Position numbers and translations under genes: made by a program. DNA of 64,000 bases from a virus. The stretch lies in IMG/VR virus record IMGVR_UViG_3300005466_000024, positions 96,001 to 160,000 of that record; one strand, written 5' to 3'. Shown piece after piece: positions 2,991 through 46,014 of this stretch. The notes under the pieces were generated by a model. It saw only the letters and a list, made by a program, of their open reading frames with translations. It was not told the origin of the DNA and searched no databases. The number at the start of each line of letters is the position of its first letter. The stretch's first letter is position 1.

Positions 2991-4229
2991 TCACGCCGGT
3001 ATCGGGACGATGTGCAGCGCCGGTTCCAGGGTGGAGGCCGCCGCCGTGGAGGTGGTGCCGCTGCGCACGAGTGTGACGACCAGGGTGGTGGCCCCGGTTA
3101 GGACGGATTGTGCCGCGTAGGCGACCGGCAGGATGGTGGCGGTGGAGTGGTTGTTGGGGTCGCCGGTCGGCACGGTGTTGGAGAACCAGGCGCCACCGGG
3201 CTGGCCGGGCCCACCGCGACCCCAGAACAGGCCGAACAGTCCCCACCCGCCGCCGCCGCCGCCCTGCCCCGCCGTGCCGGGGTTGTAGGTCTTCGAGTTG
3301 AAGGTGAAGTTGCCCGGGGCTTGGGCGCCGCCGTGGCCGGAGCCGCCGGTGGCGGTCAGCCCGGCCCACACGTCGGGGGTCAGGGTGGTGTTGCCGCCAG
3401 CGGCGCCGGCCGCGCCCTCCGTTGATCCGCCGGCGCCGGCCGTCCCGACGGTCCCGTTGATCGTGGTGGTGCCTGCGGGTAGGTTGCCGCCCACTGTCAG
3501 GGTGATCCCGGCCCAGTGCCCGGCGTTGCCGGATTCCCCGTTGGTCAGTTCACCGCCCGCCTGTCCGCCGGCTCCGGCACCGAGGATCACCACGTCGAAC
3601 GGAGAGGTGGTGATGGAGTAGCTGAACGCTCCGGGCGTGAGGTAGACGCCGCTGGAGCTGAAGACGTAGTGCTCGGAGCTGCCGTAGCCGTTCGCGACGA
3701 TGGCTCCGGTGGTCGAGCCGATCCGCACCCGCACGACCGGGTACTCGCCGTCGATGGTGGTGGTCACATCGACGGTGCCGATCACCGCCAACTTGTAGGC
3801 GAAGCCGGGGTCGGCGACGGTGGCGGAGTAGATGGTGGTTTCGGTGCTGGTGGCGTTGCTGACGGTGGCCTGGTTGTAGCTGACCGGGGAGAAGAACGGG
3901 GCGGGCCAGCGCTGGGTGGAGGCGATGTTGGCGAGGTTGGCGACCCCGATCTTGCCACTGGCGTTCAGCGCGACCGGGCCGCTGGCGGTACCGACCTGTG
4001 ACAGGTGCAGCCGTGTGGAGTCGCCGGCATCGATGAACCCGCGGGTGGCGTTGAGTGCGTCCTGGGTGTCCACGTAGGACCGTGTCACATAGGCGGCAAA
4101 CCCAGCAGTGATGAGCGTATCGACCTGGTCCTGGGGCAGGTTCTCGGCGAGCAGCGACTGTAGGTAGGCGTTGTTGACCAGATCCTGGGACTGGGTCGGA
4201 GTGGGACCGGCATAAGGGAGGCCTGCCAT
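2991..4229 (-). CDS. Putative minor tail protein with Gly-rich domain (paralog 3 of 3)
   Basis: Shared N-terminal module, then a GAGAGG/GGGGG Gly-rich domain typical of actinophage minor tail proteins. Confidence 0.65.
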   Translation of the reverse strand: MAGLPYAGPTPTQSQDLVNNAYLQSLLAENLPQDQVDTLITAGFAAYVTRSYVDTQDALNATRGFIDAGDSTRLHLSQVGTASGPVALNASGKIGVANLANIASTQRWPAPFFSPVSYNQATVSNATSTETTIYSATVADPGFAYKLAVIGTVDVTTTIDGEYPVVRVRIGSTTGAIVANGYGSSEHYVFSSSGVYLTPGAFSYSITTSPFDVVILGAGAGGQAGGELTNGESGNAGHWAGITLTVGGNLPAGTTTINGTVGTAGAGGSTEGAAGAAGGNTTLTPDVWAGLTATGGSGHGGAQAPGNFTFNSKTYNPGTAGQGGGGGGWGLFGLFWGRGGPGQPGGAWFSNTVPTGDPNNHSTATILPVAYAAQSVLTGATTLVVTLVRSGTTSTAAASTLEPALHIVPIPA

Positions 4230-4276
4230 TCGTCACCACCTTGCCCTATTATCCATCGGGGATATACGCCCTGCTA

Positions 4277-7200
4277 TCATCCGATTACCAGAGCATTCCA
4301 TTGCCCCGTAGTGGGTGTACTGTCGAATTGCAGTGACACGGTATTCGCGCTCGTAGCGGTCCATCCGATGAGCGCTCCCGTTCCTCCCGCAACCTGCGTC
4401 AGGGACACCCACAAGGTGGTGGTGTTGAGGTTGTGCGTCAGTGTCGCCGGGTTGGAGGGGGGTACCGGCAGCACCTTCTTGCGGGCGGCGACCGCCGGGT
4501 CCAGGGCGATGCCGCTGCTGGTGACCTGGCAGCCACCGCCTGTGGCGGCGACGGCGGTGAAGGTTTGTGCCGGGGCGGTCCCGGTGATGTTGATGCCGTT
4601 GCCCTGGGCGGGTGCGTACGGCGGGGCGACCGACCCGACCTGGGTCCAGTTGTTGGCGTTGGTGTCCACCACCCCGGAGGCCGAGCTGACCTGCCACAGC
4701 GTGTTGGCCCTGGTGTTGCCGGAGGCGACCACGACGAGGGTGCCGCGCACCAGGTAGGCGCCGGAGGCCATGTCGGTGGTACGCGTCCACGCCGAGCTGT
4801 TCACCGTCCAGGCACCGTTCTGGATGGAGGAGGACTGCGCGGTGAGCAGCACGGTGGAGCCGACCGCCATCAGTACCCCGTCGGCGCTCTGCTGCCCGGA
4901 CAGTGAGGCGATGTTGGCGGTGGCGACGTAGTTGACTCGCTGTTTGATCTCGGTGGAGGTGGCCAGGATCGTCTGCACGTCGGTGGGCGAGGTCTTGCCG
5001 GCCAGCCCGGTGGTCAGTGCGGTGGTGGTGGCCAGGCTGTTGATGGTGTTTTGCAGGTTGGTGATCTGGCTGATCGGAATGCTGGCGTTGGCGGCCAGTG
5101 CCCCCACGTCGGCGGCCTGCAGGAACACCGTGCCGGTTTGGCCGTTGACGGTGAGCACCGGTGCCAGCGGCACCGACAGCGGCATCCAGTTGGCTGCCTG
5201 CGACGGGTCGGTGCCCATCAGCATGTAGGTGCCCTGGTCGGCGGTGGCGGTGATGCTGGCCAGCCAGCCGGGACCGACCTGGGAGGTGGTCAGTGCGAGC
5301 ATCGCCGCCTTGTTGGCCACCTGCACCATCAGGGTGACCACGGTGGTGGGGATCTGGTTGGCCGGGACCACCCCGCCGACCAGGTCGGCCTTGGCCGCCA
5401 GTGTGGAGCCGAGTCCGCTCACCTGACTCTGTGGGATCGTCGGGATCTCGCCCAGGGGCACGGTGCCGGAGATGAGGTCGGCCTTGACCGCCAGGGTCGA
5501 GGTGAGTCCGGTGACCTGGGTTTGCGGGATGGACGGCAGTTCACCCAGGGGGATGACCCCGGAAACCAGGTCGGCCTTGGTTCCCAGCGCGGACGTCAAT
5601 CCACTGACCTGGGATTGTGGGATCGTCGGCAGCTGGGACAGCGGCACGGTGCCGCTGACCAGGTCGGCCTTGGTGGCGAACTGCGCCAGCGCCGTCGTCA
5701 GCCCCGTCACCTGGCTTTGTGGCAGCGCCGGGATCTCGGCGAGCGGTACGGTGCCGGAGACCAGATCTGCCTTCGTTGGCATTGCGTTTTGCAGTGTCGT
5801 CACGTCCGAGGCGAGCGCGTAGACCGCGTCGGCGGGTCCGGCCTCGTTCCAGCGACGCAGCTGCAGGTGTCCGTTGGGGGTGATGTAGGCGTAGCGCACG
5901 TCCTGGGCGCGGGCCCCGGCCGGGTTGTTGTAGGGGGTACCGGTGGTGCCGGTGACGGTGCCGTCGGAGTCGACGCCCCACGGCGAGTGCAGGGTGACGG
6001 TCGAGAAGTTGGTGGTCTGGCTGGCGGCCTGCCAGTATTCGGTCGCACCGGCGGGGGCACCGGCTCCGCCGGTGCCGCCCACTTGGCTTTGCAGCGCCGA
6101 AATGTCGTCGCGGATGGTGGTCAGGTCGGTGGGCAGGCTGGTGATCTGGCTTTGCGGGATCGCCGCACTGGCCGCCAGCGCCCCGACGTCGTCGGGTCCG
6201 AGGATGACGTTGCCGGTCATGGCGTTGACCGACAGCACGGCACCGCCAGCGGCCACCACGTCGCCGTCCTTGTCGGTCACCTGGTGCAGTTCGTTGACCA
6301 GTGCGATGTTGGCGGGCAGCACCGAGTCGTCGATGGTGCCGGTGGTGCCGCCGCTGGTGCGCACGATGGTGGTGTCGTTCTGGATGGCGGTGACGTCGTC
6401 GGCCACCGCGGCGACCGCTTCCGTGGTGGCCAGTCCGGACAGTGTGGTGGCCAGCCCGGTCACCTGGGCCATCGACACGTGACCGGTGGCGGCGTCGACC
6501 GCCCCGACGTCGGCGGCGGTGAGCACCACGTCGCCCTGTTTGCCGTTGACCGACACGACGCGTTGCAGGGCGATCCAGTTGTTCAGCTGCGACGGGTTGG
6601 GTCCGGCCAGCCCGTAGAGCAGGGGGCCGGTGCCGACCAGGGCGATGTCGCCGATCTGCACCTGGGAGGGGTATTGCAGGGCGAGCATGTCGGAAACGGT
6701 GGTCACCGGGATCCAGCTGGTGATCGCGGCCGGCGGGATCTCCGAGATGGGGACGTGGTTGGTGTCATCGAGGTCGGCCTTGTGCGGCAGGGTGGTCTGG
6801 ATGGTGCCGATCGCGATGGAGTTCGTGTTGACCGTGTTGCCCAGCGAGGTCTGCAGGGCGGCGATGTTCTGCTGGCTGGTGATGATGGCCTGGTTGAACT
6901 GCTCATCGATGAGCAAGGTCATGTCGGCGCGCACCCGGGTGTCGGCGGCACCGCGAGTGACCGTCTCGGCGGTCAGCGAGTTCTGCAGTGCCTCCACGTC
7001 GGCACTGGTGGCGACTGGGGTGCCGGCGGCGTCCACGACGTCACCGGCGTCGTTGAGGCGGGCCACGCGACCGGGCACCCCCAGGTCGGCCTGCTGCAGG
7101 TAGACCTCGGCATCAATGATGAGCCCCAGGTTGGGCAGCTCATCGAAGCTGATGTCGGCGTCGGGCATGGCGAAGTCCGACGTGAACAGCTCCCCGGTCA

Positions 7201-7532: not shown

Positions 7533-8276
7533 TTAGCGCGTGAAGGGCCGCAGCTGCAGCCTGATCTGGTGGTCGGGGGCCACCGCCCCGTCGGGGGCGG
7601 TGCCCCGGTGGTAGTGCCTCTGCCAGCCCTCGCCCGACGCTGCGAACGCGGCGTGGAACGCGTCACGGCTCTTGCACCACGCCGCGTTGGCGCTGGCTAG
7701 TTCGGGGTCGTCGGTGATCGGCCGGATCCGTGGGGTGAATTCCTCGAGTTCGCCGCGACGCACCGGCATGATCATCGTGATCGGTTCGCCCTTGTAGAAG
7801 GTGACCCAGTGCCCGGGCCGGGTGATCTGCCAGTTCATCGTGAACGTCGCTGGTGTCCAGTCGGTCTCCACCAGACCCTCCAGCGCCGCGATGCCGTCCT
7901 TGGGCCTGTTGGCCGGGCCGCGCACCAGCAGGTTGTAACCGGGTGGGGTGCGAAACAGCCAGGGCAGTGTCCACGTCACAATGCCCTGACCGAAGTGTGA
8001 TGCCGGGTAGCAGTACTCCGGGTTGGCCACCGGGTTGTCGCGGTCCGTCTGCATGGCCTGCATCTCGATGTCGGTCCGCAGGGGGCTACCGTTCCAGCGC
8101 ATCCGTACGGTGGCCGGGCAGGAGATCAGCCAGCCGGCCTGGTTGGCCATCAGCATCGGCAGGCACCGGTAGGCGTGCCGGTCGTGGGTGGTGTCCATCC
8201 AGTCGCGCCGCGGCGGCGCCGGGGTCAACGCGAACCCTTCGGCGGGCACCGTTTCGTAGGCGATCAGCTCGCTCAT
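7533..8276 (-). CDS. DUF6065-like protein
   Basis: PAPPRRDWMD...AYRCLPMLMANQAGW and GLVETDW.P.TFTMNW; ATG at 8276 overlaps the upstream TGA. Confidence 0.75.
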   Translation of the reverse strand: MSELIAYETVPAEGFALTPAPPRRDWMDTTHDRHAYRCLPMLMANQAGWLISCPATVRMRWNGSPLRTDIEMQAMQTDRDNPVANPEYCYPASHFGQGIVTWTLPWLFRTPPGYNLLVRGPANRPKDGIAALEGLVETDWTPATFTMNWQITRPGHWVTFYKGEPITMIMPVRRGELEEFTPRIRPITDDPELASANAAWCKSRDAFHAAFAASGEGWQRHYHRGTAPDGAVAPDHQIRLQLRPFTR

Positions 8277-9007
8277 CCGGGGCTGCACAGCTCCTGGGGC
8301 AGCGGGATCTCTGCGACGGTCGATGACCACTGTTCGCGGGTGTCGACCAGCCAGGCGGTGCGCCGCTGGTCGCGCGGGTAGCCGTCGGCGCGCTCCTCGA
8401 TCAACGATGGGCCGTCGCTGTGGTCGAGCAGGGAGGGGCGGCTGTAGGCCACCCGGTGTCCGCACTCGAGTGTCCAGTCGCTGACTGCCTCGTCCAGTGG
8501 CCGCGTGCTGCTGCGCAGGTGGGCCACCAGGTCGGGGATCAGGGCGGTGCGCACGGCGTAGCCGACGCCGTGCAGCAGGTGCCCGCAGACCAGGAAATTG
8601 GGGTCCTCGGCACCGGGCAGCCCGTTGTTGGGCCAGATCACTCGCGCGATGGGGCGCTGCCAATGGGGAGGATTCCCGCGGCCCAGGTACAGGCTGACCA
8701 CGTCGGTGGGGGCGACACGTAGCACCTGGGTGAGCTGGTCGCCGAACCCGTCCACCGCGAGGGCGTCGTCCTCGAGCACCACGCCCCATTCCGTGGTGCT
8801 GTCGGCGAGCCATTCCCAGGCGTCGGTGTGGGTCGGTGTGCAGCCTTGATTCACGCTGTCCCAGATGATCGCCTCGGGTTCGACTTGTTCGGCGAGTGTG
8901 CGCACGAGGTCTTCTCGTAACGGGTGGGCGACGATCACCAGGGAGTACGGGGATTCGACCGGCACATCCTGGATGATCGCCTCGAATTCGGTCGTCAGTT
9001 CTGCCAT
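8273..9007 (-). CDS. Glycosyltransferase-like protein (GT25-like)
   Basis: VVLEDDA acidic motif, LHGVGYAV, PSLLDH; resembles actinophage glycosyltransferases. Confidence 0.65.
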   Translation of the reverse strand: MAELTTEFEAIIQDVPVESPYSLVIVAHPLREDLVRTLAEQVEPEAIIWDSVNQGCTPTHTDAWEWLADSTTEWGVVLEDDALAVDGFGDQLTQVLRVAPTDVVSLYLGRGNPPHWQRPIARVIWPNNGLPGAEDPNFLVCGHLLHGVGYAVRTALIPDLVAHLRSSTRPLDEAVSDWTLECGHRVAYSRPSLLDHSDGPSLIEERADGYPRDQRRTAWLVDTREQWSSTVAEIPLPQELCSPG

Positions 9008-9085: not shown

Positions 9086-9117
9086 TGCGGTCGGGGTGGT
9101 TGAGCACCCCGACCGCA
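9086..9117 (-). terminator. Hairpin immediately downstream of rsr
   Basis: Perfect 13-bp stem TGCGGTCGGGGTG/CACCCCGACCGCA, 6-nt loop, no U-tract. Confidence 0.6.
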
Positions 9118-9121
9118 CGCC

Positions 9122-10810
9122 TTACACGCGGCTTGCCGAGAAGTCCGCGATCAGCTGCGGCACGGTGGAGTCGAAGCCCGAGATGTCCATCTGCCGCAGC
9201 GGATCCCGGGGGTCGCACACGCTGGTGCCGGTGGCAGTCATGGCGACGACGACCAGCTTGGCATCGATGCCCATCTTCTGACGGTACTGCTCCAGCGCCT
9301 GGTACGGGTGGACGTCCCCAGCCCAGGTCTCGTTGTCGGTCCAGACCGTGAAGGTGTCGATCGCCACCTTGTTGGCCGCCGCCCACAGCATCGGCAGGGC
9401 CACGTCGGTGCCCCCGGCGGACAGCTGGCTGATGTAGCGGACCACATCGTCCAGCCGACGGCGGGGACTGATGTCCAGCTCGGTGAGGCCACGGCCGCCC
9501 CGGCCGATACCCCTCTGCCACCCACCCGAGCAGAAGCCGGCCACCCGGTAGTCCTTCTCGGTGTTGGCGGTCACCAGGGAGATGGCCGCGCACGCCTCCC
9601 GCGGCGCGAGTGGCAGGCCCGAGCAGTCCAACCAGTCCGCCACCTTGCCCGCCATCGACAGCGACACGTCCAGCGCGATCAGGGTGCGCTTGTTGGCGGG
9701 TTCCACCGCGCCGTAGGACGCGTAGAACGCGGCATCGAGCGCGTCGGTGATCCGGCGATGCGGTGTCCAGTTCAGCTTGCCCTTCTCGCCGTGGCCCTGG
9801 GCGTAGGTCTTCTGCGCCACCAGCACGTCGACCGGGTGCACGCGGGCCCGCTTGAGCACCTCGGGGTTCTGCAGCTGATCGGCAACCAGCTTCATCGTGC
9901 CCGAACCCAGGTTCAGGTTGGTGATCCGCGGCAGCTGGCGCAGCAGCGCGGTCTGCGGCAGGGTGTGGCTGATCAACGACTCCCAGACCAGCGCCTCGTT
10001 GAGGTACTCGTCGGGGATCATCTCCCAACTGATGTTGCCGTTGTCGTTGAGCACCGCGAGCACGTCGCGCACATGGGTGGCCGACCGCAGTCGCCGATAG
10101 GCCTCGACCAGTTCGGGCAGCGGGGTGTCGACCGGGTTGCCATACAGATCCCGGCCCTCGCCGTGGGCCTTGCGGCGGGTGCCGGCGCTCGGGCTGGTGG
10201 CCGCCAGCCAGTTGTACAGCGCGTTGTGCGCGGCATCGCCGACCGGGTGGGCCTGGCGCAGCACGTCGTCGTGGCGCATGTTCTCCCGGTTGCGGTACTT
10301 GAGCACCTGGTAGGCGACTTGGTCGACGGGCTTCTCGTTGTACCAGCGGGCGATGGCCTTGACGAACGCGGGGCCCCAGCCGCGGAACTGTTCGGCGTAC
10401 TTGATGAACGTGAACAGCGTGGAACCGGTTCGCGCCACCTGGGGCAGCACCGCCAGGGCGGTGCGCCGGGCGTCGTCAGTGCCGTGGCTGGCCGCAACGG
10501 CCAGAGCGAACAGCGCCGGGTTCTGCTTGGGGGCACGGCCAGCCACGGAGATCTCAACGATGTGGTTGATGACCTTCACCGGGTCGGCGGCTATCGCGCG
10601 GAACAGCACGTCGGCGTTCTCGCGGGTCAGATCCTTCGCCGACGTGTAGTACGTGGAATCGGCCGTGCCCAACGTCAGGAACCGATGCAGCCTGGCTTCG
10701 TCGCTGATCTCGAAGACGTAGCCTCCGGCAGCGTTTTGCACCTGCTCGAGGCGCGCCTTCTGGTGTTGCGGCGTGCTACGGGTGCTGATCGAAGTCAGGA
10801 TATCGGCCAT
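9122..10810 (-). CDS. rsr: Ro60 ortholog (TROVE + vWA domains)
   Basis: QNAAGGYVF, RFLTLGT..STYY, GWGP, KYRNR, DVSLSM (MIDAS), TDNETWAG, DISGFDS. Confidence 0.95.
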   Translation of the reverse strand: MADILTSISTRSTPQHQKARLEQVQNAAGGYVFEISDEARLHRFLTLGTADSTYYTSAKDLTRENADVLFRAIAADPVKVINHIVEISVAGRAPKQNPALFALAVAASHGTDDARRTALAVLPQVARTGSTLFTFIKYAEQFRGWGPAFVKAIARWYNEKPVDQVAYQVLKYRNRENMRHDDVLRQAHPVGDAAHNALYNWLAATSPSAGTRRKAHGEGRDLYGNPVDTPLPELVEAYRRLRSATHVRDVLAVLNDNGNISWEMIPDEYLNEALVWESLISHTLPQTALLRQLPRITNLNLGSGTMKLVADQLQNPEVLKRARVHPVDVLVAQKTYAQGHGEKGKLNWTPHRRITDALDAAFYASYGAVEPANKRTLIALDVSLSMAGKVADWLDCSGLPLAPREACAAISLVTANTEKDYRVAGFCSGGWQRGIGRGGRGLTELDISPRRRLDDVVRYISQLSAGGTDVALPMLWAAANKVAIDTFTVWTDNETWAGDVHPYQALEQYRQKMGIDAKLVVVAMTATGTSVCDPRDPLRQMDISGFDSTVPQLIADFSASRV

Positions 10811-10837
10811 TGTCGATTTTTCTCCCTCTGGATTCGG

Positions 10838-10978
10838 GGTGTGGGCATCGATAGGTGAGCACCGGGAACCCTTTCGGGCACTTGCTCTGCCAACTGAGCT
10901 ACGGGGCCGGGGCCCCGGCAGGATTCGAACCTGCGACCCAGTGATTAACAGTTAACCGATGTTCGTCCGGCTCACACC
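10838..10978 (-). ncRNA. YrlA-like Y RNA 1 (141 nt), circularly permuted tRNA mimic, Asn-like
   Basis: Terminal stem GGTGTGAGC/GCCCACACC; inside, CTGTTAA, then T arm GCAGG-TTCGAAT-CCTGC, a closed acceptor hairpin, then D arm GCTC-AGTTGGCA-GAGC. Confidence 0.85.
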
Positions 10979-10992
10979 GTCTTCAGTTTTGG

Positions 10993-11128
10993 GGATGCGG
11001 GCATCCATTGGCGCCGACCGGGTTTTAGCGACTTAGGCCACTCGTCCATACCTGTTCCCAGGCAACGGGATTTGAACCCGTGTCTCTCTCTTGCAGGGAG
11101 ATAACCAATCAACTTCCGGCTCGCATCC
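10993..11128 (-). ncRNA. YrlA-like Y RNA 2 (136 nt), circularly permuted tRNA mimic, Cys-like
   Basis: Stem GGATGCGAGC/GCCCGCATCC; CTGCAAG loop; T arm ACGGG-TTCAAAT-CCCGT; acceptor TGCCTG-GGAA-CAGGTA; D arm GAC-GAGTGGCCTAA-GTC. Confidence 0.8.
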
Positions 11129-11138
11129 AACGTTAGGG

Positions 11139-11213
11139 GGTGCAGGCATCCATGTAGTGACTCCCGGGGGGTATCTTCACATTAGATAACCGAGTGTCAT
11201 TCCGGCTTGCACC
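11139..11213 (-). ncRNA. Minimal Y RNA 3 (75 nt)
   Basis: GGTGCAAGCCGGA...CTCGGTTA...ATGGATGCCTGCACC; same motifs and covarying stems, no tRNA domain. Confidence 0.75.
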
Positions 11214-11233
11214 GATATCCAATTCTTGTGCAG

Positions 11234-11303
11234 AGAGCAGGCATCCATAGACGAGACCGAATTTTCGTGGCTGGAAGGTAACCGATCTCATGCGGCTTGC
11301 CCC
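11234..11303 (-). ncRNA. Minimal Y RNA 4 (70 nt)
   Basis: GGGGCAAGCCGCA...ATCGGTTA...ATGGATGCCTGCTCT; second stem TGAGATCG/CGGTCTCG. Confidence 0.7.
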
Positions 11304-11361
11304 CTGTGGCATCGTCGACCTTACTGCTTTCGGTCACCGACCACCAACTTCTTTTCCGCGT

Positions 11362-11775
11362 TCAGCGGGTCGCCGTTCTCCGCTTCAAGCATTCCCGGTG
11401 GATCTTGGTGAAGGTTTCCGCGTCGGGGTCGGGTTGCCACGAGTCCGTGTCGAGGATCACGTGTCCGCACCCGCTGCACTGGTCGCCGGTGATCGGCACC
11501 GACGCCACCGTAGTGGGCGGATTCAGGGACTCCCCGCCGCGCCGGCGTGACTCGAACGGACTGTCCCCGTCGTGGGGCATCCGCAGGGATGACACCTTCT
11601 CGCGGGCACTCTGCGCCCGGGCCACTGTCTGGGCGCGCCACCCGGCGTAGGCTGCCGCCTCGTCACCGTCGTAGAAGCGACACACCTCACGGCTGCCGCC
11701 CTCCCCCTTCACCTCGTAAACCCCGTGGCGCAGACCGCCCTCGTAGGGGTCACTGATCACCGTGTACTGAGTCAT
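11362..11775 (-). CDS. Hypothetical protein
   Basis: ORF directly upstream of the Y RNA array; C-terminal CxxC. Confidence 0.55.
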   Translation of the reverse strand: MTQYTVISDPYEGGLRHGVYEVKGEGGSREVCRFYDGDEAAAYAGWRAQTVARAQSAREKVSSLRMPHDGDSPFESRRRGGESLNPPTTVASVPITGDQCSGCGHVILDTDSWQPDPDAETFTKIHRECLKRRTATR

Positions 11776-12913
11776 TGCCCACCTCCACCCCTTCCAGCAG
11801 CTCCACGTAGCGCGGCTTCAGGCTGTCCCAGCTGTGCCGGTGCGCCCAGTCCCGCGCCGCGGCTTGGCCATCGACGAACAGGGTCGCGTCGGTGGCGAAC
11901 TCGTCGATCTTGGCGGCCAGCATCCGTGGATCGACCTCGAAGACGTCGATCCACACACGGGTCAGCAGTCGGTCGACCTTTCGTGAAGGTACGGCCCAGG
12001 TACGCCGCGCGTGCGCCTGGGCGTACACGTCGTGGGCACCGAAGATGACCGGCATGCCAGCCGCCATAGCCTCTTGACATGGAAGGGATAAGCCAGCGAA
12101 TCGTCTGGGCGCCACCAGTACGTCCTGTCCCTCGTACAGTTCCTCGTAGCAATCGACATCATTCTCTTCGACCACCATTTCCACGTTGGCGGGCAATCGC
12201 ACCTGCGTAGCTCTCACGAGCTGGTCGATGTATCCCGGTAGCAAACACCTGAACGTGATCGTGATCTCGGACTTCACATGGGGCAGCGCCCGCAACACGT
12301 CGGTCGTGCCGCCCCTGTCCTTGACCGCTGGTCTACCTGCAACATGCAAAAATGCTGTAGCATGACTGTGGTTGCCATATGGTGCGGTCGGTTGGTTACG
12401 GTGGGCTAAGGCCTGGCTACTTTGAGGTTGCCCCCGAGCTTGCTCGGGGGCAACTTTCTGAAACCGTTCGGTGGCCACCGGCACCGGCAGCAAGATCTTG
12501 GGTTCCGGCAGTTGGTCCCATAGCCACGGTCCCGGCGCACAAAACAGATCAGGCCGCGGCAGGTTCGTGTTCTGTATGTGATCGCAGAACTCGGGATTCA
12601 CGTGAAGTAGGGTTCTTATCCCGCGTTCACGCGCCGATCGCACCAAATCCCAGGTATAAAACGTTTCCGCACTGTAAACGACATCCAATCCGTCCAGGAA
12701 TTCGTTGATCTGCCCGGTAGTGGGATGCCATCCCTTGATCACCTGGGCGTCAGGATAAGTAAAAACCCGCCTCTTGTTGCAATTGTCGGCTTTGTTGTAG
12801 AGGTCCGATACGTCGATCTCCAATATCTTGTCGGGATGAAGATGGGCATACATTTCATATGTCTGTATCCCCAACCCGGAGCAATCGTTACGCGCTATCA
12901 GGCCCCACGTCAT
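11750..12913 (-). CDS. GT-B (GT4-like) glycosyltransferase
   Basis: MTWGLIAR..SGLG start; DVLVAPRRFAGLSLPCQEAMAAGMPVI; ATGA overlap at 12913. Confidence 0.75.
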   Translation of the reverse strand: MTWGLIARNDCSGLGIQTYEMYAHLHPDKILEIDVSDLYNKADNCNKRRVFTYPDAQVIKGWHPTTGQINEFLDGLDVVYSAETFYTWDLVRSARERGIRTLLHVNPEFCDHIQNTNLPRPDLFCAPGPWLWDQLPEPKILLPVPVATERFQKVAPEQARGQPQSSQALAHRNQPTAPYGNHSHATAFLHVAGRPAVKDRGGTTDVLRALPHVKSEITITFRCLLPGYIDQLVRATQVRLPANVEMVVEENDVDCYEELYEGQDVLVAPRRFAGLSLPCQEAMAAGMPVIFGAHDVYAQAHARRTWAVPSRKVDRLLTRVWIDVFEVDPRMLAAKIDEFATDATLFVDGQAAARDWAHRHSWDSLKPRYVELLEGVEVGNDSVHGDQ

Positions 12914-13209
12914 TTGTTTTCCGGCCGCCAGGAGAACCATTCGTCGAGCGCCTGGGATAGGTTCACGTGGCCACCGCCCTGCATGGAGGTGAACTCGTCG
13001 CCGCGGGTCCAGCTCAGCCCGTTGAGTAGGCCGGCGTGGTTGTACCCGACCTCGATCTGCTTGTCCAGCTCGGGTTGTCTGAGGATCAGTGGCTCGCGGG
13101 AGACCACCACCCAGCCGTGTTTGGCGCCGCGTTTGACGAGCCGGTCCTTGTCGGCATCGACTCGCAGCTGGCCCACCGGGCGTGGTTTGTCGTCTGGATT
13201 CACGGGCAT
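12910..13209 (-). CDS. Hypothetical protein
   Basis: Translationally coupled ORF between glycosyltransferase genes. Confidence 0.55.
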   Translation of the reverse strand: MPVNPDDKPRPVGQLRVDADKDRLVKRGAKHGWVVVSREPLILRQPELDKQIEVGYNHAGLLNGLSWTRGDEFTSMQGGGHVNLSQALDEWFSWRPENK

Positions 13210-13913
13210 TTCGGGTCTCCTGCACGGCCGTCGAGGTGGTATGAGCGTTGCATATTGGGGCCAGGATTGTAGAGGTGCACGCAGTATTGGTTCCACCCTG
13301 CCATCCCGTAGGTCTTGTAGGCGTCGGCCAGCACGCCGTGCATGACGTCTTCGATGAATCCGTGTCGCCCGTCGAGGTGGTCGGCGTGGATGCGCCGGTA
13401 GAACGCCAGGCTGGCGACGTGCGGGCGCTGCGACCACTGGCTGGTGCGGATGAAGCCGCTGTCGTCGCCGTGCACCATGTGTTCGTGATCGGGCAGGATC
13501 TGCGATTCGTGGTGCAGGCGCACGCAGTTGGATCGCCCGCTGGACACGAATCCGCTGATCAGGTCGAAGTCGATGTGCTCGTCGATGACCATGGGGGTGT
13601 CCTGTTCGACGTAGGCCACGAGGGGGGTTTCCACGAGGTTCAGTGCGTGCGCCAGCATGCCGATTTGGTGGTGGTGTTCATCGAAGATTATCGGGCAGAT
13701 GTTGCCGTAGTGGTGGTCGGCCAGCCACAGGGCGTTGGCGATGTGTTCCTCGTAGGCCTGGCGGCGGTGTTCCAGGTGCGGCGCGGCACCGTCGAAGGTC
13801 AGGATGATCTCGGCGTCGGGCAGCCAGTGGCGCACCGAATCGAGGGTTTCGGTGAGGATCGCGGTGTCGGGGTGACTGGGGATCGGGCTGACCGGGACGA
13901 TGGCGGTGATCAT
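13200..13913 (-). CDS. GT-A (GT2-like) glycosyltransferase, paralog A
   Basis: ITAIVPVSPIPSHP, ILTFDG, YVEQD, TSQWSQRPHV. Confidence 0.65.
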   Translation of the reverse strand: MITAIVPVSPIPSHPDTAILTETLDSVRHWLPDAEIILTFDGAAPHLEHRRQAYEEHIANALWLADHHYGNICPIIFDEHHHQIGMLAHALNLVETPLVAYVEQDTPMVIDEHIDFDLISGFVSSGRSNCVRLHHESQILPDHEHMVHGDDSGFIRTSQWSQRPHVASLAFYRRIHADHLDGRHGFIEDVMHGVLADAYKTYGMAGWNQYCVHLYNPGPNMQRSYHLDGRAGDPKCP

Positions 13914-45791: not shown

Positions 45792-46014
45792 TGTTCCGAT
45801 GAGAACTCCTGCTAGTCTGCTCCCGTCGGTACCTGACCATCGATGCCCGCGTTGGAAACGAGCCGGACTGGAATCGATATCGCAGCGGTAGCTCAATCGG
45901 TTAGAGCACCCGGACCGCACACACCGGGGGATGTCCGTTCGACTCGGACCTGCTGCCCGACCCTGAATCGTGAGCAGTCTTGTAGGCCAACACTCGGTGA
46001 ACTCATCGGTGACA
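45792..46014 (+). ncRNA. Putative permuted Y RNA: Ro-binding domain (45826..45877) fused to a tRNA-like domain inside long outer stems
   Basis: ATCGATGCCC then GAGCCGGAC with the array's spacing; second stem GGAATCGA/TCGGTACC; outer stems 45808-22/45972-86 and 45796-803/46002-09. Confidence 0.65.
45882..45957 (+). tRNA. tRNA-like cloverleaf with a non-canonical 10-nt anticodon loop; no encoded CCA
   Basis: Acceptor GCAGCGG/CTGCTGC, D arm GCTC/GAGC, stem CCCGG/CCGGG with loop ACCGCACACA, T arm GTCCG-TTCGACT-CGGAC. Confidence 0.75.

What the first reader, a model, noticed from the sequence alone, without database searches (positions are those of the whole stretch)
9122..11303. Phage Ro60 (rsr) with a tandem array of four Y RNA genes
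Seen: four units 10-20 nt apart share 5' (G/A)AGCCG(G/C)A, internal (A/C)T(C/T)GGTTA and 3' AT(C/G)GATGCC. Their terminal helices differ in sequence but all pair, always with the same A.C mismatch flanked by G-C pairs, and a second 8-10 bp stem also covaries. Known: Ro60 orthologs bind Y RNAs encoded beside them, and Ro/YrlA pairs occur in bacteria and a few phages, usually with one or two RNAs. Inference: four different payload modules on one Ro-binding scaffold point to a diversified RNP toolkit.
Basis: partly seen in the sequence, partly recalled or inferred. Interest (0 to 1): 0.85.

Follow-up and report, generated by a model that had tools for sequence, protein, structure and literature searches.

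The report
Four Y RNA genes before phage Ro60
An uncultured 181-kb phage of actinobacteria carries four back-to-back small RNA genes that share one docking stem but have different heads, just upstream of its gene for the ring protein Ro60. It is a solid, typical example of a known RNA-protein partnership that turns out to be commonly multi-RNA.

Summary
On the minus strand, upstream of a full-length rsr/Ro60 gene (9122-10810), lie four units: 11231-11306, 11139-11213, 10993-11128 and 10838-10978, with spacers of 10-17 nt. They share a 5' AGCCG(G/C)A, an internal GGUUA(Y/A)C and a 3' AU(G/C)GAUGCC. Each unit closes with its own 6-9 bp terminal helix, which pairs only with its own partner.

The combined motif occurs four times in the 180.7-kb genome, all in this array. 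A covariance model trained only on other phages' units finds all four at exact boundaries. An iterated model ranks them 1-4 in the window.

Unit 4 is YrlA-like, but below Rfam's cut-off. Unit 3 is a second tRNA-like type. Units 1 and 2 are minimal hairpins.

Four is not exceptional. Cluster C mycobacteriophages have three units. Of 80 IMG/VR rsr loci, 40 have at least three detected units, with a maximum of 11. At least 15 of 80 bacterial loci have four or more. The papers I could read describe at most two per species.

This scan has already reported many such arrays on other DNA. Expression and Rsr binding remain untested.

The parts
9122..10810 (-). rsr (Ro60 orthologue), 562 aa, ATG at 10810
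   Evidence: Pfam TROVE 1.4e-44 and vWA_Ro60 1.5e-52; PHROG 850 RNA-binding protein 7e-99; full-length match to D. radiodurans Rsr 2NVO at 1e-93, Xenopus Ro60 1YVP and human RO60 9NEN; 55% identical to Cluster C mycobacteriophage Ro-like proteins
11231..11306 (-). Y RNA unit 1 (minimal; conserved core 11234-11303): 9-bp terminal helix with G.U pairs, AGCCGCA, 10-bp upper stem, GGUUACC, about 21-nt head
   Evidence: model R1 13.4 bits and R2 17.3 bits, E 0.031, rank 4 in the window. This is the weakest of the four.
11139..11213 (-). Y RNA unit 2 (minimal): 6-bp terminal helix, AGCCGGA, upper stem with one A.A mismatch, GGUUAUC, about 22-nt head
   Evidence: found at exact boundaries by R1, a model trained only on other phages (26.2 bits, E 2.6e-4, rank 1 of the window)
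10993..11128 (-). Y RNA unit 3 (tRNA-like, second type). V hairpin at 11086-11102, T arm at 11065-11081, closed acceptor-like GGAA hairpin at 11051-11062, long D-like arm at 11028-11046.
   Evidence: R2 33.8 bits, E 1.3e-6; partial tRNA-model match covering the V and T arms; homologous heads in L018 (79% over 103 nt), Gordonia phage Cashline and DirtMonster unit B
10838..10978 (-). Y RNA unit 4 (YrlA-like). T arm at 10918-10934, 7-bp closed acceptor-like stem at 10902-10917, D arm at 10884-10899, CCC-GAAA-GGG hairpin at 10869-10878.
   Evidence: Rfam YrlA 51.2 bits, E 1.7e-10, below the gathering score of 69; R2 27.6 bits, E 5.9e-5; 55 BLAST hits, best to the region upstream of rsr in Nocardia and other actinobacteria (81% over 84 nt)
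10822..10828 (-). GAGGGAG, ribosome-binding-site-like, 11 nt before the rsr ATG. There is no terminator between unit 4 and rsr.
   Evidence: read from the sequence; terminator scan
9087..9116 (-). 12-bp G+C-rich hairpin 5 nt after the rsr stop codon, a likely end of the transcription unit. It has no U tract.
   Evidence: -31.1 kcal/mol, z -4.2

Best explanation
The block 10838-11306 (minus strand) encodes four different Y-type non-coding RNAs of about 70-76, 75, 136 and 141 nt.

I infer that they are co-transcribed with the phage rsr gene and cut out of the precursor by host RNases, as shown for Y RNAs of M. smegmatis and D. radiodurans.

Each RNA pairs its 5' and 3' ends into a lower stem. 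From the outside in, this stem has a unit-specific helix, an A.C opposition, G-C, C-G, a single bulged C, then G-U. This is the counterpart of the Ro60-docking stem of known Y RNAs. I infer that the phage Rsr ring binds there.

Above it sit an upper stem, the invariant GUUA(Y)C, and a head that differs in each unit. Two heads are tRNA-shaped modules of different types. Two are short loops.

The heads most likely tether Rsr to different host partners or gate its cavity. For the tRNA-like heads, candidate partners are PNPase as in RYPER complexes, or proteins that bind the tRNA elbow. One phage protein would thus be turned into several RNPs acting on structured RNA during infection.

Shown here: the anatomy, covariation, family membership, linkage to rsr and strand bias. 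Inferred: transcription, processing, Rsr binding and the partners.
For: The rsr gene is full length. Own-partner terminal helices have 6-9 bp against 2.4 bp for mismatched partners. The compound motif is unique to the array within 180.7 kb.

Model R1, built only from 8 units of other phages, recovers all four window units at exact ends, at ranks 1, 3, 4 and 9 of 128 kb searched. R2 ranks them 1-4, with a gap to noise.

Covariation of the scaffold: 86% of cells paired against 66% in shuffles on 8 MAFFT-aligned units, with 11 pairs showing double changes and 0 of 500 shuffles as high. On 57 units, 93% are paired against 64% in shuffles, and slid controls reach at most 45%.

All 225 R2 hits in 629 kb of phage loci lie on the rsr strand. 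GTTAYC is 5-fold (phage) and about 20-fold (bacterial) enriched on the sense strand upstream of rsr.

Unit 4 matches YrlA. Units 3 and 4 have homologues next to rsr elsewhere. Within the array only the scaffold is shared.

From the literature: Y RNAs lie within 4 kb of rsr on the same strand, carry the motif GNCGAAN0-1G, and are processed from a polycistronic precursor (PMC4201824). A phage Ro60 binds two upstream Y-like RNAs and host PNPase (PMC12135203). The phage genome has no RtcB, RNA ligase, CCA-adding enzyme or PNPase of its own, so any partners must be host proteins.
Against: No sigma-70-like promoter was found.

Folding energies are only 1.3-2 sd below shuffles. None of the four units reaches an Rfam gathering score. 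Units 1, 3 and 4 are individually weak under the independent model R1 (E 0.36-1.6).

The 5' motif departs from the published GNCGAA by an inserted G or C.

The R2 alignment is fitted to the model structure, which inflates its pair counts.
Confidence: 0.85

Rival explanations
1. The four modules are not released as separate RNAs. They stay in the 5' leader of the rsr mRNA as reiterated Rsr-binding sites that autoregulate rsr translation or stability.
For: No terminator or promoter separates the array from rsr. Unit 4 ends 27 nt before the ATG.
Against: In several phage loci the same units lie downstream of rsr (L036, L047, L081, L055). In S. Typhimurium the Y RNAs are encoded 3' of rsr. M. smegmatis and D. 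radiodurans Y RNAs are processed from precursors. Diverse heads with tRNA-like folds are not needed for a simple operator.
Confidence: 0.08
2. The units are decayed or permuted tRNA genes or tRNA-derived repeats with no functional link to Rsr.
For: Units 3 and 4 contain T-arm and D-arm sequences. Y RNAs are thought to derive from tRNA dimers.
Against: Units 1 and 2 have no tRNA parts. ARAGORN calls no tRNA here. The conserved elements are the non-tRNA scaffold, which covaries and tracks rsr across hundreds of loci.
Confidence: 0.03
3. The region encodes small proteins (for example the 59-aa ORF at 11133-11312 on the minus strand), or is a chance cluster of G+C-rich hairpins.
For: Mechanical ORFs of 46-60 aa overlap the array.
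Against: The conservation pattern is RNA-like, with compensatory changes in helices and invariant loop motifs. Related arrays share no reading frame. The compound motif is unique in the genome.
Confidence: 0.02

Closest known systems
YrlA / YrlB Y RNAs with Rsr (S. Typhimurium, M. smegmatis, 22 phages including mycobacteriophage ET08; Chen et al. 2014, PMC4201824; Rfam RF02553)
   Same: They lie next to rsr on the same strand. A 5'/3' stem carries a GNCGAA-like motif. At least one RNA has T, closed acceptor-like and D arms (unit 4; unit 3 with a V arm). A second, simpler RNA sits in the same precursor.
   Different: There are four units rather than the one or two described. The motif reads GCCG(G/C)A, with an inserted base. 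An A.C opposition is fixed in all units. Unit 4 is below Rfam's cut-off and units 1-3 are not detected by Rfam at all.
Cluster C mycobacteriophages (Bxz1, Cali, DirtMonster and others), Ro-like protein gene
   Same: These hold the closest phage Rsr (55% aa). They share the synteny with glycosyltransferase genes, and a 485-nt unannotated gap upstream of Ro holds units built the same way. DirtMonster unit B is homologous to window unit 3.
   Different: They have three units (short, tRNA-like, short) rather than four. Their core is GGCCGA / CAUGUCU. They have no unit-4-type YrlA. Cluster C phages carry about 30 tRNAs and a tmRNA, whereas this phage has essentially none.
Thermus phage phiLo Ro60 with Yrl1 and Yrl2 (PMC12135203, 2025)
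   Same: A phage Ro60 with Y-like RNAs encoded just upstream. Binding and a ternary complex with host PNPase were shown there, which supports the proposed mode of action.
   Different: That phage has two RNAs, defined by a CGAA motif. It is an unrelated phage and host, and no array or tRNA-like heads were reported.
D. radiodurans Yrn1 / Yrn2 (polycistronic with tRNA-Asp, upstream of rsr)
   Same: Several Y RNAs are made from one precursor upstream of rsr. Y RNA tethers Rsr to PNPase (RYPER).
   Different: The sequence family is different. It is chromosomal and UV-induced.
Vertebrate Y RNAs (Y1, Y3, Y4, Y5) and nematode stem-bulge RNAs
   Same: The lower stem has a single bulged C in a GGUCCGA-like strand, followed by an upper stem and then UUAUC at the 5' edge of the loop (PMC4726728, PMC4450293). 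There are several paralogues with different loops per organism.
   Different: There is no match to Rfam Y_RNA or sbRNA models at E up to 10. In animals they are separate Pol III genes, not an array. Homology as opposed to convergence is unresolved.

Membership tests
Bacterial/phage Y RNA (YrlA-type, Chen 2014) | Encoded within about 4 kb of rsr on the same strand | tested here: met
   The units lie 27-496 nt upstream of the rsr ATG on the minus strand.
Bacterial/phage Y RNA (YrlA-type, Chen 2014) | GNCGAAN0-1G motif near the 5' end | tested here: inconclusive
   The window has GCCG(G/C)A(A/U/C), that is, the motif with one inserted base. The 57-unit family consensus is G-Y-C-G-A-A-G, which fits the published motif.
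Bacterial/phage Y RNA (YrlA-type, Chen 2014) | [quoted passage not shown] | tested here: met
Bacterial/phage Y RNA (YrlA-type, Chen 2014) | tRNA-like domain (T arm, closed acceptor-like stem, D arm) in at least one RNA of the locus | tested here: met
   Unit 4 matches RF02553 over model positions 1-114 at E 1.7e-10. Unit 3 has a T arm and a homologous head elsewhere.
Bacterial/phage Y RNA (YrlA-type, Chen 2014) | Score at or above Rfam's YrlA gathering threshold | tested here: not met
   Unit 4 scores 51.2 bits against 69. Units 1-3 have no hit.
Bacterial/phage Y RNA (YrlA-type, Chen 2014) | Bound and stabilised by Rsr; discrete stable RNA | not testable with these tools
Metazoan Y RNA / sbRNA | Lower-stem helix with a single bulged C on the 5' strand | tested here: met
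   All four units have a bulged C. It is C in 55 of 57 family members.
Metazoan Y RNA / sbRNA | UUAUC at the 5' end of the loop after the upper stem | tested here: met
   The units read UUACC, UUAUC, UUAUC and UUAAC. In the family the positions are U 57/57, U 55, A 56, U 50 and C 56.
Metazoan Y RNA / sbRNA | Match to Rfam Y_RNA (RF00019) or sbRNA models | tested here: not met
   No such hit at E up to 10 over 10700-11450.
Ro60/Rsr protein | TROVE HEAT-repeat ring plus C-terminal vWA domain, full length | tested here: met

The most novel reading that the evidence does not exclude
The phage and actinobacterial units form one large, unannotated Y RNA family. Its three-part handle (a GGYC[C]GA-type bulged lower stem, an upper stem, and UUAUC at the loop edge) would be truly homologous to that of animal Y RNAs and nematode sbRNAs. 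UUAUC would then be an ancient Ro60-linked element that predates its role in animal DNA replication. Arrays of up to 11 units with interchangeable heads would be the normal, combinatorial form of the prokaryotic Ro RNP. The literature, in contrast, holds that bacterial Y RNAs are not homologous to vertebrate ones and describes at most two per species.
Probability: 0.35. Interest if true: 0.7.

Novelty: new member of a known kind. Interest (0 to 1): 0.42.

Why it matters
The locus adds a clean four-RNA example to the Ro60/Y RNA system. It shows that standard annotation (Rfam at gathering scores, tRNA finders, gene callers) misses all four RNAs.

Taken with the related loci, it shows that prokaryotic and phage Ro60 proteins are usually served by a set of Y RNAs with one docking handle and different heads. 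This makes the long-standing question of what the heads recruit directly testable in a tractable relative: Cluster C mycobacteriophages in M. smegmatis.

The locus itself is ordinary within that picture.

Tried and rejected
- **Rfam at gathering thresholds** over the whole window gave nothing.
- **ARAGORN** found no tRNA in the array.
- **The promoter and terminator scan** found no sigma-70-like promoter. Its only terminator-like call is on the wrong strand, at the rsr start.
- **Single-sequence folding** z-scores are weak, and I do not use them as support.
- **MAFFT alignment** of whole units misaligned two of them (A1, A2). I dropped those and gave the structure by hand. Upper-stem columns remain imperfect in A3.
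- **R1 with default filters** found only unit 2. Filters off were needed.
The tRNA model does align 11086-11102 as an anticodon arm. However, the triplet depends on the register (UGC or GCA). By position the hairpin is the V arm of published YrlA, which lacks an anticodon loop. I do not assign identities.
- **A conserved palindrome** TGTAAYGCGTTACA lies upstream of arrays in the nearest relatives but is absent from this genome.
- **Literature gaps.** The 2020 Annual Review (PMC10870794) and the supplementary tables of Chen 2014 are not held. I therefore cannot exclude that multiple hits per phage were tabulated there.

Full report
**Setting.** The window is bases 96001-160000 of a 180,705-bp IMG/VR virus record that CheckV rates complete. 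It has 65.6% G+C and essentially no tRNA genes. The ORF at 9122-10810 (minus strand, 562 aa) is a full-length Ro60/Rsr. It matches Pfam TROVE and vWA_Ro60 and PHROG 850. It aligns end to end with D. radiodurans Rsr (2NVO, 1e-93), Xenopus Ro60 and human RO60. Its nearest phage relatives are the Ro-like proteins of Cluster C mycobacteriophages at 55% identity. Its nearest cellular relatives are actinobacterial Rsr proteins at about 50%. As in Cluster C phages, glycosyltransferase genes flank the cassette.

**The observation.** Reading the minus strand gives four units.
- U1: 11231-11306 (conserved core 11234-11303)
- U2: 11139-11213
- U3: 10993-11128
- U4: 10838-10978

Spacers are 17, 10 and 14 nt, and U4 ends 27 nt before the rsr ATG.

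Each unit's variable 5' flank is complementary to its own 3' flank (9, 6, 7 and 6 bp). Flanks paired across units give a mean of 2.4 bp. With exact ends, the minimum-energy folds keep these terminal helices.

The lower stem reads the same in all four. From the outside in it has a unit-specific helix, an A.C opposition, G-C, C-G, a single bulged C, then G-U. The upper stem is real but less tidy than described: 6-10 bp, with one mismatch in U2 and U4 and four G.U pairs in U3.

The compound motif GCCGNA-N5-12-GGTTA occurs four times on both strands of the whole genome, all in this array. Within the array only about 30 nt at the 5' end and 12-30 nt at the 3' end are alike. The heads are unrelated.

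**Independent support from other genomes.**
- In DirtMonster, a Cluster C mycobacteriophage, the 485-nt unannotated gap upstream of the Ro-like gene holds three units of the same build (cores GGCCGA / CAUGUCU).
- IMG/VR contigs with related Rsr proteins hold 7, 8 and 4 units (L003, L007, L004). Each has lineage-specific cores but the same logic, and own-partner helices of 3-9 bp clearly exceed cross-partner controls.
- Model R1 was built from eight units of other phages only. On those units 86% of cells are paired against 66% in shuffles, 11 pairs show double changes, and 0 of 500 shuffles score as high. With filters off over the whole window, R1 finds U2, U3, U1 and U4 at exact boundaries, at ranks 1, 3, 4 and 9.
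- The iterated model R2 was built from 57 units. It shows 93% of cells paired against 64% in shuffles, and slid controls reach at most 45%. This alignment is fitted to the model, which favours the structure. R2 ranks the four units 1-4, at E 1.6e-8, 1.3e-6, 5.9e-5 and 0.031, before a gap to noise. U2 was in R2's training set; the other three were not.
- Across 629 kb of phage loci, all 225 R2 hits lie on the rsr strand.

**What the units are.**
- U4 matches Rfam YrlA along the whole model (51.2 bits, E 1.7e-10), but below the gathering score of 69. It has a T arm, a 7-bp closed acceptor-like stem, a canonical D arm and an extra CCC-GAAA-GGG hairpin. Its best relatives lie upstream of rsr in Nocardia and other actinobacteria.
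- U3 is a second tRNA-like type. It has a V hairpin, a T arm, a GGAA-closed acceptor-like hairpin and a long D-like arm. Its homologues are DirtMonster unit B, a Gordonia phage Cashline unit and L018.
- U1 and U2 are minimal hairpins with heads of about 21-22 nt. They have no BLAST relatives and no Rfam hit.

The 57-unit family consensus for the 5' strand is G-G-G-Y-C(bulge)-G-A-A-G. This fits the published Rsr-recognition motif GNCGAAN0-1G and resembles vertebrate GGUCCGA. The window's lineage has one inserted base and the A.C opposition, which L003 shares.

Directly after the upper stem, U-U-A-U-C is nearly invariant in the family: 57, 55, 56, 50 and 56 of 57. GTTAYC is 5-fold (phage) and about 20-fold (bacterial) enriched on the sense strand upstream of rsr. 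The same UUAUC sits at the same position in nematode sbRNAs and vertebrate Y RNAs (PMC4450293, PMC4726728). However, no Rfam Y_RNA or sbRNA model matches here.

**How it most likely works.** No terminator lies between the array and rsr. A strong hairpin follows the rsr stop codon (9087-9116, -31 kcal/mol, z -4.2). I therefore infer one transcript that is processed into four Y RNAs plus the rsr mRNA. This is what was shown for M. smegmatis YrlA/YrlB and D. radiodurans Yrn1/Yrn2.

Rsr would dock on the bulged lower stem. The heads would tether or gate it. The phage encodes no PNPase, RtcB, RNA ligase or CCA-adding enzyme, so any partners must be host proteins. This matches Thermus phage phiLo, where a phage Ro60, its two Y-like RNAs and host PNPase form a complex. 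U4's 7-bp acceptor-like stem resembles the feature that makes M. smegmatis YrlA an RNase P substrate; this is a lead, not a result.

Transcription, processing, binding and partners are all inferred.

**How unusual it is.** It is not very unusual. R2 counts are lower bounds, since R2 sees 3 of 7 units in L003's contig.
- Of 80 IMG/VR rsr loci, 40 have at least three detected units and 17 have at least four.
- The maxima are 11 (L033), 7 (L062) and 6 (L022, L056).
- Among 80 mostly actinobacterial loci there are 184 hits, and at least 15 loci have four or more units.

The papers I could search describe at most two Y RNAs per bacterium or phage. Multi-unit arrays therefore seem under-described, and this locus is a mid-sized member.

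Earlier notes of this scan report many such arrays (5-10 units), and the UUAUC resemblance, on other DNA. My own tests agree with them.

**Verdict.** This is a new member of a known kind. Interest is moderate for the locus and higher for the family-level pattern.

Noticed in passing
window 45882-45958 (+): ARAGORN calls a 'tRNA-???' with a four-base anticodon (gcac). It is the only tRNA-like call in the window. The whole genome has only this and one doubtful tRNA-Gly near its end.
   Followed up: no
L015:2093, L023:2119, L095:2116, L097:1834 and 2182, L111:2027, L114:1391, L157:2291: A 14-bp palindrome TGTAAYGCGTTACA lies just upstream of the Y RNA arrays in the closest Rsr relatives, as an operator would. 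It is absent from this phage genome.
   Followed up: partly
L033 (IMG/VR 3300020020_000028), 153-2328: Eleven R2 hits lie in a row upstream of rsr, the largest array in this sample.
   Followed up: no
L036, L047, L081, L055, L030 (positions 4100-5450): In several phage contigs the Y-like units lie downstream of rsr instead of, or as well as, upstream.
   Followed up: no
L102:794-1055 (-), L103:396-646 (-): Promicromonospora loci have two extra units on the opposite strand 1.5-2 kb upstream of rsr. These are the only opposite-strand hits in the bacterial set.
   Followed up: no
L011 (Gordonia phage Forza) 4391-5025: R2 hits fall inside the annotated tmRNA/tRNA cluster downstream of the Ro-like gene. 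They may be false positives on tRNAs or Y/tRNA hybrids.
   Followed up: no
window 8273-9007 (-) and 11750-13225 (-): Glucosyl- and glycosyltransferase genes flank the Ro/Y RNA cassette. Cluster C mycobacteriophages also have glycosyltransferase genes near their Ro-like gene, on its upstream side.
   Followed up: partly
all arrays compared (window, L003, L004, L007, L009): Within one array the 5' and 3' cores are nearly identical. Between lineages they differ in a correlated way (AGCCGGA/GAUGCC, GGCCGA/AUGUCU, GAUCCAA/CUGUCU, GGGUCG/UUAUCC). This suggests either concerted evolution or co-evolution with each lineage's Rsr.
   Followed up: partly
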